Source: Eledone cirrhosa
Lineage: Eukaryota
Length of the DNA stretch: 64,000 nt
Assembly: GCA_964016885.1 (NCBI GenBank)
Contig: OZ024743.1
Coordinates: forward strand, 329,282,001-329,346,000
Direction: 5' to 3'
In this document: positions 10,342 through 58,699 of the stretch, piece after piece
Layout: the number at the start of each line of letters is the position of its first letter
How positions within the stretch are numbered: the first letter of the stretch is position 1
Translations under genes and position numbers: made by a program
The notes under the pieces: generated by a model
What the model saw: the letters and a program-made list of their open reading frames with translations, nothing else
Told to the model about the DNA's origin: nothing
Database searches by the model: none

Positions 10342-10540
10342 TAACGAAGGAAATGTGGTAAGGAACCAGGTGGACCATAACGCACCAAAGTACTCAATAC
10401 TTAAGGTAGTAGAGTGGGTAATAGGAACGAGTAGGACCCCGACGGCTGAGCTCAAGCCGTTTCGACGGCTAATTCATTTTAGTCCAGAATTAGCCATCGA
10501 AACGGCTTGAGCTCAGCCGTCGGGGTCCTACTCGTTCCTA
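10342..10540 (-). mobile_element. Short PLE-type fold-back element carrying the 3' half of a hammerhead, in (TA)n
   Basis: Arms 10422-10475 / 10487-10540; GAAAC-GGCTTGAGCTCAGCC-GTC-GGGGTCC; terminal GTATTGAGTACT. Same family at 14341, 23797 and 32337. Confidence 0.8.
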
Positions 10541-11534
10541 TATATATATATATATATATATATATATACATATATATATATATATATACACATATATATA
10601 TATATATATATATATATATACATATATATATATATATACACATATATATATATATATATATATATATATATATATATATACATACACACACAGACACACA
10701 CACACACATATATATATATATATATATATATAAATATATACATATACACACACACACACACACACATATATAGATATATATACTTCGTTTTTATATATAT
10801 AGCAAAATTGTAAAATTGTTACATAAAATTAGATTATTTACAACACCATCTGCATTCAGTTCCTTTTTTCAAATATACCTAACTGTACCAAGGATTTCAC
10901 ACATTTTCCAATATATATATATATATATCCTTAACGGGATCTTCTGAAACTCAGTTTCAGAAGATCCCGTTAAGGGTGAAAGCAGCGATTCTTTGCTTAA
11001 ACTTTAATCTGTTATTTTTAATATATATATATATATATATATATATATAAGCAAAAGGGATATTCAATTTGTTGGTAATTCAACAAATATAAATGTTTAT
11101 AACTGATTCACATCACTCGACAAGTTTTCTGGAGTATAATATTCAATGATATTAAATAAATGGAAACTATATTTATAAAACCATATTTATATGGTTTTAT
11201 AAATATAGTTTCCATTTATTTAATATCATTATATATATATATATATATATATATATATATATACTATAAAGTATGTCCATAGAATCATTTGATAATATAT
11301 ATACTCCATTTCCTCTCCCAATTAGCATAATTAACCACACAAAAAATCAATTAGACCAGGCTATAAGATTAAAAGGCAGAAGATATAGTAGATAAATAAA
11401 CGACAGCAATCTCTTCGCGACCAACTGCCATAGAATATTTACCCAACATTTCAACAGCACGTGGAAATCGATTAAATATACACAATTAGGAATAAAATTA
11501 AAGTTAGAAGAAATGCATATACACATACCAGGAT

Positions 11535-11620
11535 TATGTTTCTACCCTAGGGTTTCGTTCGCATTTGGAAATATCCTATTAATCATAAAATCTCGAGCTT
11601 CGAACTCATCAGGAAACACA
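11535..11620 (-). ncRNA. Type I hammerhead ribozyme (intact core, 49-nt stem II region)
   Basis: TGTTTC-CTGATGA-GTTCG...CGAAC-GAAAC-CCTAGG-GTA|GAAACA: perfect stem I, 5-bp stem II closure, palindromic stem III ACCCTAGGGT. Confidence 0.85.
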
Positions 11621-11994
11621 CTCGTTTGGACAAAGGATTTTCCTAAGTGATCTCCGCCAGAAACGAATTCAAAATGGCTAAGAACTGTGACGTGGCAGTG
11701 GTCAAGTCAGAAAGAATGTGATTGGTTGCTTACGGCGAGTGGGCATATATATATATATAAGTATGTATACGTACATACATATAGGTATACAGACGTACAG
11801 TAGTATGTATATATATACATGCACACACATATATATATACGTATGGGTTTACCGAAGATTTATTATAATGCTAGGTTTGTTGGTAAACAAACAGCCCGAA
11901 TTATTAGCCGTGCAGTGTTCGACAACCATCGTTGCTCTTTTGTTCAACACTGACAAAGGAACGATGAACTAGTTTCTAGCTTATTAGCTATCAT

Positions 11995-12530
11995 CAACAC
12001 CGTATACCTTGTAGTGGCTCTACCTTGAGTGACTCTCTGATCTCCAAGCTACACACTCTATCGAGTAACGTAAGTCCAAAGACCCTTCGACTCCCACAAT
12101 CAACGGTTTTGATTAAGCACCATTTATCCGAATACATATACTCGGATATTTGTATAGAGACATCAGGGCAGCAAGAAGCTGACCATCAAACCCACACTCT
12201 TGCACAACCTTCCATAGAACGTGGTCATATGCCTTTTTTTCGAGGTCTACGAAACAAGAATATAACTCTTGGCAATCCTCCCACGATTTCTCGAAGACCT
12301 GCTGCAATGTGAATATTTGGTCGGCTGAGCTGCGTCCACCGCGAAAACCACACTGTTAATCAGCTAGCTTGTACTCGACCGCCTCCCTGCATCTTTTTAC
12401 CAGACATGTAGCATAGACTTTACCGCGAAGGCTTAACAAGGAGACCCTTCTTGTCTTCCTTTCTATTTAAGGCTTTTAACATCCCGGGCCGGATTTCATC
12501 TTTCCCAGCAGTCTTGCCACGTTTGAGCTG
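11995..12530 (-). pseudogene. Non-LTR (RTE-like) LINE reverse transcriptase fragment, deleted and frameshifted
   Basis: QCGFRGGRSSADQIFTLQQVFEKSWE...CFVDLEKKAYD...LWKV are non-LTR RT motifs; 12030-12085 resembles the RTE 3' fragment at 36745-36795. Confidence 0.8.
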
Positions 12531-12642
12531 GAAGACTTAATAAAATGAATAATAAAACTCTACTTCGGTATTGAATACTCTTTTCTCACAGACGTGAACC
12601 ACATACGGATATATATATATATATATACATTTAATATAGAAA

Positions 12643-55210: not shown

Positions 55211-55541
55211 TATATTTGAAAAAAAGGAAAAGAATGACTTCACTTGTAGTATTAAACAATTTATGATTTAATGTTATAATATTATAATATTATGAGTTGG
55301 TAGATCCAGTAAGTTCTTTGTTAACTTCGGTGGGAAGAATTTTAGAGATTCCTGGTTAACTTGGGTTGGACGAAAAAGTTCTCCAACCCAAGTTAACCAG
55401 GAATCTCTAAAATTCTTCCCACCGAAGTTAACAAAGAACTTACTGGATCTACCAACTCATAATATTATAATATTATAACATTAAATCGTAAATTTGTTAA
55501 CAGTACAAGTGAAGTCATTCTTTTCCTTTTTTTCAAATATA
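55211..55541. repeat. Fold-back, ~160-bp arms with 11-nt loop
   Basis: 55211-55370 is inverted at 55382-55541; ends in (TA)n. Confidence 0.9.
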
Positions 55542-55560
55542 TATATATATATATATATAT

Positions 55561-56897
55561 ACAAGGGATAACAAAATATCATTATAGGTAATCCAGTTAA
55601 AGGTTGTGAATACTTCTTATTATGGATAGTTTTAGCATACGGCGTTGTTTGACTCAACAAGAGGTTTACGTAGATGGCGAGTTTATGATTTCACTTGTAT
55701 TCCTATGTAAGTTTATCTTGGAGTAATAAAATTGAAAAAGTGAAGAATAACATGGTCGACAGTACAAAAAAGGGGAATTTATCATCAATTTTACTGTTAA
55801 GTAGCATTTTGAAAGAACTATTTTCTGTAGGCATAAAACGGCGACCAAATTTGAGAACTTTAGACCAGCTTAATTCATCTTATCTATTCCATAACCCAAA
55901 TTGTACCACTTAAATCTATTATAATATCACATCATCATCATTATTGTTATAATTGTCATCATCTATCAATTAACCAACATCAAAACCTCTTATATCTACA
56001 TTTATATTTTATGTATCTCTATCTTTCACTTTCTGTCTCTCTATTTCTCTCCCTAAATTTATTTCATCTCTGGCATTTTATTTTATCTTATCATATCATT
56101 TTCGCTTCTAATATAACATACAACTAATTAATCAAATAATTAATTAAATATATAATTAATTTATTAAAATAACCAATACGCACATAAATATATTTAACAT
56201 TATCATATTTACACCTTCGTAACTCTCTATATTTTAACCACTTTCAATAATCTTAATACGTTTAAATTTCTTCGCACATTTTTACTTATTTATTTTCATA
56301 TTTTCAAAATTCATATTTTGTATCATTTTGTATCATCCTCGATGTAATTTGTTTATTTATTTATTTATTTATTTAAATTTATTCATGTATTAACATGTAT
56401 TCATTTATTGTTGATATCATTATTTTCCCTTTATTTTTATTTTTATCTTACGTTATTTCTCCGTTATCCTTTTCTTTCCTCTTTCTCTTCTCCTTTCTCT
56501 ATATCTTTTTTTTCTCTATATATCTTTCTCTGCTTTCATTTCATCTTTTCTTTTTCTTTTTCTTTTTCTTTTTCTTTTTCTTTTTCTTTTTCCTTTTCCT
56601 TTTCATTCTTTCTTTCCTTTATCTATCTCTCTTTCTTTCTTTTTTTCTCTCTCTATCTTTATTATTAATATTATTATTGATGCTGTAATTTGAATTTGTA
56701 GATTTGCCGGTTATATATTTTTTGTTATAGTCTCTGATGTTCTGATTGAGCTAACATTGTATTTAAAATTGAGTGGCACTGCTTCTAGTGTTCAGCAATT
56801 TTTAGACAACTTAATCAGAGAAACAATTGTTAGACTGTAAATAAATACCCCTTTTTTGTACTGTTAACCATGTTATTCTTCACTTTTTCAATTTTAT
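55561..56897 (+). mobile_element. Second, older PLE 3' remnant with inverted terminal copy
   Basis: ORF-end remnant FCRHKTATKFENFRPA* (55823-55873) resembles SCNHKLKKTFKYYKPN*; AT-rich UTR; hammerhead at 56726; 56843-56897 is inverted at 55726-55782; TA flanks. Confidence 0.65.
56726..56839 (+). ncRNA. Type I hammerhead, 79-nt stem II, one core mutation
   Basis: TATAGTCT-CTGATGT-TCTGATTGAG...CTTAATCAGA-GAAAC-AATT-GTT|AGACTGTA. Confidence 0.7.
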
Positions 56898-57229
56898 ATA
56901 TATATATATAATATATATATATATATATATATATATATATATATCGTTTCTGAATTTGTTTAGCAAGATTCTTTATCTGAAATCGTGTGTTGAAACCGAT
57001 AAGACAAAATGAAAAAATGAAAACACACACACACATAGAACAAACAACCAACCAACAATAAATAAATAAATAAACAAACAAATATAAATAGAAAAATAGA
57101 AAAATGAACACAAACACACACAGACACCCGGATGTGGCGCATGCGCAAACTGAGCACGCAACCCACACACAAACAAAATGGCGTAGGATAGAAGAAAGGA
57201 AAGGCACAGAAACGAAGAAAGAAATCCCC

Positions 57230-57274
57230 AGTCACTGAAGAGGTCACAGAGTGTGTGACGAAAGAACTATGACT
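57230..57274 (+). ncRNA. Minimal hammerhead
   Basis: AGTCA-CTGAAGA-G GTCACA GAGTG TGTGAC-GAAAG-AA-CTA|TGACT. Confidence 0.65.
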
Positions 57275-58699
57275 ATATATATATAAACAACTATCTGGTT
57301 GTGGAACCAACCAACCAACCAGAAATTTATAAATTTATAAATTTGTAAATTTATAAATATATAATAAATTAAATTGAAGTGAAAGCAACTGGTGCGTGTG
57401 TTTCTTATTGGCAACATGACCCTCCCAAAGTATAACAATATATATATATATATATATATATAACTTATGTTTACCGAATTCGCAGACCAGACCCCTTCTT
57501 CCTCCCGTTAGACCTGTGCGAAATTCCTTCCTTGCTCACATTTCAACCAGGTTTGATGGTCTTTATTCTCTCGTTCACGATTCCACCGAATTTATATTCA
57601 TAGAAATCTGGGACTTGTTACCTTCTTCATCACTTTCTGCTGCTTAAACCATTTTGTTTGTTTACCCTAGCGTCCCCTTTATTTACGTGTCCCAACGACT
57701 TTTTTTTTAGCCGTTGCTCGCACCAACCTGAGGTATATGGCCTTTAATGCGACGAAATGCCTACGACGTTTGGATGGCCACTGATGAGGACAAACGTTTT
57801 CATATGTAACCCATTTGCAGCGCCGCAGCTCCATTATTATCATATATATATATATATATATATATATATATATATATATATATATATATATATATATAAT
57901 AAAGATATATGAATACATAAATACATGTGTGTGTGATGAATCAATTAGGCGGGTACTGGCTGCTTTTTGATCAGTAGCGAAACGCGCGTCACCAACCAAT
58001 AAACGTAATGAAGGAGTAACCACTCGTCCTTGTTTAATTATAGCTCTACACCTCGACACAGAAGTGAACCTAAACATTGAGTGCTAACCTGGGTGAACCT
58101 ACAGTAACTCTACCTTACACTCCCTGGATATATATATTTTTATATATATTCAATTCACAGAGAAATACGTATACTTGGTATGTTTACTCATCTATATACT
58201 AAATACTGTAAATTTATATACACATTTACTTAGTCTCGGTTACATCTTCCGTGTGTATACTGATATCGTCTACTTGTGCTGCTTAGCGCACAACTTATAT
58301 ACATAGCGGTCCGACAAAATGAGGGCGTTAAAATATGTACGAAACTCGAAAAAAAAAAAAAAAAAAATGGATATGACAAGGACGTTGTTTAATGATTGAA
58401 ACCAGTAAAAAAATAAAAAAGATACACACACGCACACACACACACACACACACACACACACACACACACACACACACACACACACACACACATATATATA
58501 TTTGTTTATTTATTTATATGTATGTGTGTGTGTGTATATATATGTATGCTTGTGTACGTGTGTGTGTGTGTGTATGTGTATCTATGTGTGTACGTGTCGT
58601 GTGAATGTGTACGTGTGTGTGTATTTGAATAGTTTTAACCTACAGACCTATAAATGAAAATAGGTCGGTTGTGTTATTGGTGTGTGCTGTAAAGTACTG

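What the first reader, a model, noticed from the sequence alone, without database searches (positions are those of the whole stretch)
10389..58085. Shared terminal motif ATYGAGTRCT roughly 25-50 bp from the (TA)n junction across unrelated families
Seen, in element orientation: GTATTGAGTACT (10389-, 14486+, 23846-), GTATTGAATACT (12568+, 13997-), GTATTGAGTACC (12768+), GTATCGAGTACT (17433+, 32359-), ATATTGAGTGCT (21991+), CATTGAATTCT (23953-), CGTCGAGTGCT (25040-), CATTGAGTTCT (38683-, terminus of the large PLE), GTATTTAGTACT (50160-) and CATTGAGTGCT (58075+). It lies downstream of the hammerhead where one is present, and surrounding sequences are otherwise dissimilar between families. Inference: a cis signal for RT/endonuclease recognition or 3'-end formation that links the short elements to the autonomous PLE type.
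Basis: partly seen in the sequence, partly recalled or inferred. Interest (0 to 1): 0.75.

Follow-up and report, generated by a model that had tools for sequence, protein, structure and literature searches.

The report
Twin hairpin signal of Penelope retrotransposons
The shared motif is one strand of a small bulged stem that occurs twice in the end region of many Hydra-type Penelope jumping-gene families, each copy lying a few bases past one of the element's two insertion ends, so the predicted RNA hairpins likely tell the reverse transcriptase where to start copying into TA repeats.

Summary
The motif is real and strongly placed: 29 of 45 strict matches in 1.2 Mb of unbiased sequence lie 25-55 nt before a TA tract (background 2.9%). 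It is not a stand-alone word. It is the 3' strand of a bulged stem, RCUC / variable upper stem / UN bulge / GAGY-RCU, whose pairs covary between families. The carriers are 5'-truncated, inverted copies of several Hydra-clade Penelope-like elements; at least six tail families lead to their own ORF, so they are mostly not parasites of the one large element. Full copies carry two such hairpins between hammerhead and ATG. The short end of an insertion lies about 5 nt before hairpin 1 and the long end 3-5 nt before hairpin 2, each with 2-5 nt of TA microhomology. The '25-50 bp' distance is thus the spacing to hairpin 2 (30-115 nt). Both hairpins recur in metagenome relatives and, by eye, in published coral and sea-cucumber consensi; a Neptune-like family and a 310-nt retrozyme lack them. 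Likely role: RT loading sites that set two starts, one per broken target end; untested. Not found in print in seven searches. This scan noted the hairpin(s) before on other DNA.

The parts
10389..10415 (-). hairpin 1, family A (ACUC / 4-bp upper stem / UU bulge / GAGU-ACU) in the 80-nt tail of the inverted element 10344-10538
14471..14497 (+). hairpin 1, family A, in inverted element 14343-14542
17418..17444 (+). hairpin 1, older family A copy
32359..32385 (-). hairpin 1, family A copy whose tail is cut; no TA run after it
23845..23854 (-). 3' strand only, family A stub truncated inside the hairpin
12557..12579 (+). hairpin 1, family D, one mismatch in the lower stem (other copies of the family read GAGU)
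13996..14018 (-). hairpin 1, family D, same mismatch
21993..22002 (+). 3' strand of a decayed family D-like copy; 5' strand mutated
   Evidence: family by eye
12758..12779 (+). hairpin 1, family C, 3-nt loop, in inverted element 12631-12820
23953..24039 (-). decayed long-loop hairpin 1, single copy in the sample
25040..25078 (-). hairpin 1, family F, 63 nt past a hammerhead
58076..58085 (+). 3' strand of hairpin 1, family E; 5' strand lost in this copy, intact in L111, L274
38683..38766 (-). hairpin 1 of the large element, 61-nt loop, lower-stem pairing probability 0.89-0.99 in the L171 copy
38637..38773 (-). 137-nt tail, present on this arm only; in full copies hairpin 2 begins 8 nt after it
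38637..44090 (-). tail-bearing, shorter arm of the inverted Hydra-type element
44089..50080 (+). tail-less arm, about 650 nt longer at its 5' side; joined to the other arm at a 2-nt microhomology (44089-44090)
44091..46222 (+). 5'-truncated RT + GIY-YIG ORF (DKT, CxCx5C); full copies elsewhere have an 830-aa open frame
49875..50029 (+). type I hammerhead motif with long stem II insert and palindromic loop III (mirror copy about 38825-38979, minus)
   Evidence: read from sequence; not detected by Rfam in L171
23568..23630 (+). further hairpin 1, GCUC/GAGC type, 106 nt before TA
54303..54365 (+). further hairpin, 6-bp upper stem
55649..55724 (-). further hairpin 1, 1 nt after the short-arm junction of element 55564-56894
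50160..50169 (-). listed site without partner strand; probably chance or decayed beyond recognition

Best explanation
The motif is the 3' strand of a bulged stem that occurs twice in the terminal repeat of Hydra-type Penelope-like retrotransposons, and the two predicted RNA hairpins likely act as loading sites that make the reverse transcriptase start copying a few bases 5' of each. Shown: the pairing pattern, two hairpins between hammerhead and ATG, each genomic end 1-9 nt before a hairpin, 2-5 nt of TA microhomology there, and arms that cannot be copies of one another in the large window element. Inferred: the endonuclease cuts both strands of a (TA)n tract; each DNA end pairs with the AU patch in front of one hairpin and primes its own cDNA; the two cDNAs stop early and join head to head. 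This would give the observed (TA)n - inverted arm - arm - tail - (TA)n layout, the tail being the stretch between the two starts, so hairpin 1 is kept in the tail and hairpin 2 is left out.
For: Pairing: 28 of 77 families with an upstream RCTC have 3 or more upper pairs against 7.7 (maximum 17) in 5000 permutations; outer pair A-U 17, G-C 14, G-U 1, A-C 1 of 33; with no pairing demanded the first upper pair is Watson-Crick in 35 of 45 own-genome and 20 of 21 metagenome variants, 217 sites against 9 on reversed sequence. Tails defined without the motif hold the hairpin in 10 of 24 clusters against 0.3 in shuffles. Short end 1-15 nt (median 5) before hairpin 1 in 17 of 17 hairpin-bearing elements among 34 with clean junctions; microhomology of 2 nt or more in 28 of 34, 5.9 expected. 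Hairpin 2 found 3-5 nt after the long end's microhomology in five families with run-on copies: window family, A, L051, E, F. Metagenome relatives: 18 of 24 upstream regions have a hairpin, 12 have two, 0 on the other strand, 0.02 in shuffles; 12 of 31 terminated copies stop matching within -6 to +5 nt of a hairpin start, two of these at contig ends. Published Hydra consensi, by eye: full hairpin in 3 of 6 (two copies in Hydra-1_Ajap), partial in 2, degenerate at best in 1. Large element: the tail-less arm is longer yet lacks the tail. A Poseidon PLE cuts both strands and starts RT at two internal sites that bound the tail (PMC11167929).
Against: No binding, folding or priming experiment, and no RNA data. 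Strand of action is weakly supported: G-U against A-C 8:5, 23:10 and 7:4. Hairpin 2 often has only one upper pair, and in the window family it has a 102-nt loop and predicted pairing 0.07. Tail and TA microhomology also occur without the hairpin: 13 of 17 hairpin-less elements, the Neptune-like family and the 310-nt retrozyme, so it is not needed for the layout in general. Rare junctions break the rule: 4 of 7 run-on family F copies end in TA about 25 nt past hairpin 2 with no hairpin after, and L264 ends inside hairpin 2. 19 of 31 metagenome comparisons end elsewhere. The run-on searches asked for CTC, so they favour a 5' strand; the 3' strand and ORF were independent checks. No run-on copy for family D, unclear for C. 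Families are related, so covariation counts are not independent events; no tree was built.
Confidence: 0.6

Rival explanations
1. The hairpins direct RNA cleavage or 3'-end formation just 5' of themselves; the RT then starts at real RNA 3' ends.
For: Same geometry as the best explanation. In the anole PLE, RNA-seq read ends fall on the RT start sites (PMC11167929).
Against: In that PLE the start was internal and did not move with 3' extensions. Both ends carry TA microhomology, which priming explains and cleavage alone does not. Tandem units containing both hairpins are copied intact.
Confidence: 0.15
2. The element is read as DNA: an interrupted inverted site (or cDNA hairpin) bound by the GIY-YIG endonuclease, which nicks next to it in donor or tandem copies.
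For: The D. virilis endonuclease needed the tail sequence to cut plasmid DNA (as cited in PMC11167929). Wobble bias for the sense strand is weak.
Against: Spacer length varies from 9 to about 100 nt while the upper stem covaries, which fits a fold better than a duplex site. Hairpin 2 is absent from both target and inserted DNA; 5' truncation and inversion point to reverse transcription.
Confidence: 0.12
3. The hairpins serve translation, packaging or promoter function in the 5' UTR, and the ends fall beside them because those are the nearest unpaired AU-rich patches.
For: Hairpin 2 lies about 20-110 nt before the ATG; AU-patch priming occurs without hairpins and off-register.
Against: Both ends follow both hairpins across spacings of 30-115 nt and many families; AU patches are common elsewhere in these repeats and rarely used.
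Confidence: 0.1
4. Neutral relic of common ancestry, or the first reader's selection of look-alike words.
For: One family supplies most genome-wide matches; 50160 is unsupported.
Against: Flanks and loops are unalignable while the core and pairing persist in families whose proteins are about 37-51% identical, also in other hosts.
Confidence: 0.03

Closest known systems
Hydra clade of C-terminal EN+ Penelope-like elements (Craig et al. 2021, PMC8557442; section 11, search passages, supplement parts 1, 2, 52, 53 seen)
   Same: DKT, RW(K/R), CxCx5C linker, C-terminal GIY-YIG, 3' type I hammerhead, (TA)n targets, inverted copies with one-sided tail; the hairpin is visible in their consensi.
   Different: The passages seen describe no hairpin or shared tail motif; tails here are 49-180 nt rather than 30-40; the window family unit is about 6.3 kb rather than under 3 kb.
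Poseidon_Ac internal RT initiation (Frangieh et al. 2024, PMC11167929; parts 1-2 of 4 read, covering the main text)
   Same: Both strands cut in AT-rich DNA; two internal RT starts bound the tail; protein-binding motif presumed near the starts.
   Different: Other clade; starts reported as not homologous to the cut DNA, whereas here 2-5 nt pair; no conserved cross-family RNA element was defined there; here the starts lie in the 5' UTR, not in the ORF.
Self-priming model for PLE inverted repeats (Arkhipova et al. 2013, PMC3846280; passages seen)
   Same: Head-to-head inverted pLTRs with an optional tail.
   Different: That model uses self-priming on an antisense template; the large window element needs two separately templated arms.
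Non-LTR retrozymes (bioRxiv 10.64898/2026.07.22.740005; part 1 of 5 and passages seen)
   Same: Hammerhead-bearing PLE-derived repeats.
   Different: Most carriers here have their own ORF; the one clear retrozyme tested lacks the hairpin; the words hairpin, tail and stem-loop do not occur in that text.
RT-recognition structures of other retroelements: LINE 3' stem-loops, R2 3' UTR, hepadnavirus epsilon, telomerase RNA (recalled, not tested)
   Same: Small structured RNA element that recruits an RT and fixes where synthesis begins; short primer-template pairing as in telomerase.
   Different: No sequence or Rfam match; here the element is doubled and lies 3' of each start, outside the copied part.

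Membership tests
Hydra-clade PLE (large element and full copies) | Single ORF, RT with C-terminal GIY-YIG endonuclease | tested here: met
   830-aa open frame in L171, motifs read by eye; Pfam gave no significant family
Hydra-clade PLE (large element and full copies) | DKG modified to DKT | tested here: met
   HSDKTGN
Hydra-clade PLE (large element and full copies) | N-terminal RWK motif | tested here: met
   reads RWR, a conservative variant; Hydra-1_Crog has the same by eye
Hydra-clade PLE (large element and full copies) | CxCx5C linker; CxxC and CxH in the endonuclease; no CCHH | tested here: met
   CNCRNKTNC, CRLC, CNH; no CxxC inside the GIY-YIG core in sister families, by eye
Hydra-clade PLE (large element and full copies) | Type I hammerhead in the pLTR | tested here: met
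   core, stem I and stem III read from sequence; cleavage untested; no Rfam hit
Hydra-clade PLE (large element and full copies) | Insertion into (TA)n; tandem and inverted copies with tail | tested here: met
Hydra-clade PLE (large element and full copies) | Placement in the Hydra clade on an RT tree | not tested
   reference proteins were only readable in the supplement; no tree built
Non-autonomous retrozyme or SINE-like passenger (short elements) | No own ORF in full-length copies | tested here: not met
   family A, family E and the L031, L048, L091/L128 and L051 tails lead to or follow their own Hydra-type ORFs
Non-autonomous retrozyme or SINE-like passenger (families C, D, F) | No own ORF in full-length copies | tested here: inconclusive
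   F: no ORF match in two run-on loci; D: no run-on copy; C: unclear
RT-recognition RNA element | Conserved secondary structure with compensatory changes | tested here: met
   searches agree but that alignment was chosen for pairing
RT-recognition RNA element | Bound by the element's RT and required for initiation | not testable with these tools
   needs biochemistry
Known Rfam family | Match above gathering score | tested here: not met
   no listed match reached its gathering score in the window (best 150 of 229 shown) or in L171, L261, L207, L213

The most novel reading that the evidence does not exclude
Hydra-clade Penelope elements use a doubled, clade-wide RNA hairpin to load two reverse transcriptases, one for each end of a double-strand break in (TA)n, each primed by 2-5 nt of pairing as in telomerase. 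This would explain the tail and the head-to-head inversion of Penelope insertions in one step, and give the first defined RNA recognition element for a telomerase-related retrotransposon RT.
Probability: 0.4. Interest if true: 0.82.

Novelty: new variant of a known kind. Interest (0 to 1): 0.62.

Why it matters
How Penelope-like elements recognise their RNA and why their insertions are inverted with a one-sided tail is open; the 2021 clade paper asks for an in vitro system and the 2024 study found two internal starts but no conserved signal. A roughly 25-nt element with invariant bases, covarying pairs and a fixed offset to both ends gives exact mutants to test, in a family with many near-identical intact copies. 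Because these RTs are sister to telomerase, the RNA they bind bears on telomerase origins. The hairpin also marks Hydra-type ends for annotation, and a portable start signal could be useful in RT-based insertion tools. The host elements themselves are of a known kind.

Tried and rejected
Rfam on the window: only microsatellite-driven matches below gathering score among the 150 of 229 shown; on four loci nothing relevant. Pfam on the ORF: nothing significant. Idea that the motif is an alternative hammerhead stem III or cleavage site (published Hydra stem III often reads ACUC/GAGU): rejected by reasoning, since GAGC and GUG forms give no cleavable triplet. Idea of a U-G wobble in family E hairpin 2 (L274): rejected, two other copies read otherwise. 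Per-copy hammerhead co-orientation test: no power. First metagenome scan found nothing. No RNA holder listed; the laid runs were contigs and say nothing on RNA ends or expression. No dimer prediction was obtained, so the two-RT step has no structural test. Clusters were partly chained by composite insertions; re-clustered on downstream sequence, which may split families. Rows dropped: of 878 inter-tract segments 142 were inverted elements, 78 tails passed length and complexity filters, 34 had clean junctions. In one search five of ten upstream regions were not element sequence or empty, L134 failed the descriptor (degenerate by eye) and L148 showed hairpin 1 only. Literature searches listed no paper describing the hairpin; Repbase and Dfam entries, subscription papers and the bioRxiv supplement were not seen and may bear on novelty.
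Full report
Observation. All 14 listed words exist; 7 fit the strict consensus and 12 lie 29-46 nt before a TA run. They fall into about 8 groups, five sites being one family. The enrichment is real beyond the window: 31,985 plus-strand genome matches against 787 and 166 for the reversed control, and 29 of 45 strict matches 25-55 nt upstream of a TA tract in 120 evenly spaced 10-kb stretches, against a 2.9% background and a maximum of 11 for 200 permuted motifs. Site 50160 has no support.

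What carries it. Self-comparison shows units of the form (TA)n - inverted arm - arm - tail - (TA)n, from 90 bp to the 11.4-kb element at 38637-50080. This is the layout described for Penelope-like elements, with a tail at one end (PMC8557442, passages). [quoted passage not shown] In tandem copies the tail lies between the hammerhead and the ATG, ending 155 nt before it. The commonest short family (A) has its own ORF, 47% identical to the window family's; so do the tails at L031, L048, L091/L128, L111 (family E) and L051. A Neptune-like and a Poseidon-like family in the same sample (labels from motifs, partly recalled) have tails without the motif.

The motif is half of a stem. Tails defined from the inverted structure alone show RCUC near their start and UN-GAGY further on, with complementary bases between. 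A descriptor finds this in 10 of 24 tail clusters against 0.3 in shuffles. Selecting by sequence only, 28 of 77 families have three or more upper pairs against 7.7 by permutation. The outer pair switches between A-U (17) and G-C (14) with 2 exceptions in 33. With no pairing demanded, the first upper pair is Watson-Crick in 35 of 45 and 20 of 21 variants. RNAalifold gives the same 7-pair structure on 28 chosen hairpins, 4 pairs with changes on both sides; that set was chosen for pairing and is only illustrative. Invariant are CUC, GAG and the first bulge U; loops run from 2-3 to about 100 nt. Seven of 8 single sequences fold into the stem, with modest z-scores. Wobble pairs lean only weakly to the sense strand.

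Two hairpins, two ends. The short arm ends 1-15 nt (median 5) before hairpin 1 in all 17 hairpin-bearing elements of 34 with clean junctions, while the long end is 40-115 nt after it; 28 of 34 junctions share 2-5 nt with the TA tract, 5.9 expected. Eighty metagenome relatives showed a second hairpin nearer the ATG: 18 of 24 upstream regions have at least one and 12 have two, none on the other strand; the six without looked like flanking DNA by eye. Twelve of 31 terminated copies stop matching within -6 to +5 nt of a hairpin start. The resulting prediction, a second hairpin just past the long end, was then met in five families of this genome: the window family (5 nt after the microhomology), A (3 nt; 195 plus-strand run-on matches, complete hairpin in 4 of 5 loci read, then ATG and ORF), L051 (3 nt), E (4 nt; three copies, each with a private change) and F (about 5 nt, one upper pair). 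Family D had no run-on copy and C was unclear. Published consensi read by eye hold the full hairpin in Hydra-2_Amil, Hydra-1_Ajap (twice, the consensus starting 2 nt before the first) and Hydra-2_Ajap, partial forms in Hydra-1_Crog and Hydra-1_Amil, and at best a degenerate one in Hydra-1_Obim. Six 9-mers occur at 7 places in that supplement: 4 in these hairpins, 3 inside Naiad or Chlamys sequences without a visible partner; line breaks may hide others.

Mechanism. Shown: positions, pairing, microhomology. Hairpin 2 is in neither the target nor the inserted DNA, yet the long end is placed relative to it, so it most likely acts on the template RNA (inference). In the large element the tail-less arm reaches about 650 nt further 5' than the tail-bearing arm and the join has 2 nt of microhomology, so neither arm can be a fold-back copy of the other; in family A either arm can be the longer (one reference, rough). 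I infer two primings, one per broken target end, each next to a hairpin-bound RT. This agrees with the anole Poseidon protein, which cuts both strands, starts at two internal sites bounding the tail and was predicted to be a dimer (PMC11167929), and differs from the antisense self-priming model (PMC3846280, passages). Binding, folding in vivo and dimer use are untested.

Against. The hairpin is not general: a 310-nt tandem retrozyme and the Neptune-like family have tails and microhomology without it, and only 4 of 23 hammerhead seeds ran into one. Hairpin 2 is often weak, 0.07 predicted pairing in the window family. Some junctions are off-register. Covariation counts are not corrected for relatedness. 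RNA processing, endonuclease recognition and a translational role remain as rivals.

Comparison and novelty. The elements are new members of the Hydra clade by all motif tests made; no tree was built. The twin hairpin works like other RT-recognition structures (recalled) but matches no Rfam family and was not found in seven searches or in the papers seen: PMC8557442 (passages, section 11, supplement parts), PMC11167929 (parts 1-2 of 4), PMC3846280 and PMC4209133 (passages), bioRxiv 10.64898/2026.07.22.740005 (part 1 of 5 and passages). Repeat databases were not available. Several earlier unreviewed notes of this scan report the hairpin in this and other genomes; they are not independent support.

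Verdict. Real, conserved across hosts, clade-specific, apparently undescribed cis element in a known kind of retrotransposon; new variant of a known kind; interest 0.62.

Noticed in passing
L261-L272, L002, L012 (family A hammerhead): The core reads UUGANAA rather than CUGANGA in most full copies: a U3-A8 pair in place of C3-G8, recalled as a tolerated natural variant; not checked in print.
   Followed up: partly
L037:4118 minus, L065:2117 plus; window 10929-11020: A second abundant Hydra-type family has a hammerhead core CAGAAGA (U4 changed to A).
   Followed up: no
L094:4045-9164, L103, L054, L150:5971-8036: 310-nt non-coding tandem hammerhead arrays (retrozyme-like) inserted in (TA)n as head-to-head arrays with a 35-nt tail and no RCUC/GAGY hairpin.
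   Followed up: partly
L291-L302; window about 56895-57437: In the Neptune-like family both ends fall at the same word, AATAT followed by CG, 60 nt apart: possibly a different doubled start signal.
   Followed up: partly
window 38637-50080 and G000 at large: The family is very young: all 130 scored copies are 99-100% identical over 303 aa, many with an 830-aa open frame, 35,056 candidates; unit about 6.3 kb with a 3' UTR of about 3.8 kb rich in degenerate microsatellites.
   Followed up: partly
family A inverted copies (window 10344-10538, 14343-14542 and about 28 others): The inversion centre falls mostly 120-141 nt from the tail end, at hammerhead stem II, as if copying stalls there; these copies keep only half of the ribozyme.
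   Followed up: partly
L195, L206, L194, L201, L198: A third hairpin-like word (ACUC ... UGAGUAG) lies right after the hammerhead in several metagenome families and in Hydra-1_Amil.
   Followed up: no
L280, L284, L305, L306: Family F has a rare third TA junction about 25 nt past hairpin 2.
   Followed up: partly
window 22104-22978 and 12893-13801: Two rearranged hammerhead-bearing elements with partly direct, partly inverted duplications; no hairpin found after the 13032 hammerhead.
   Followed up: no
L079 minus, near 942: Open frame that looks like cadherin repeats of a protocadherin, by eye.
   Followed up: no
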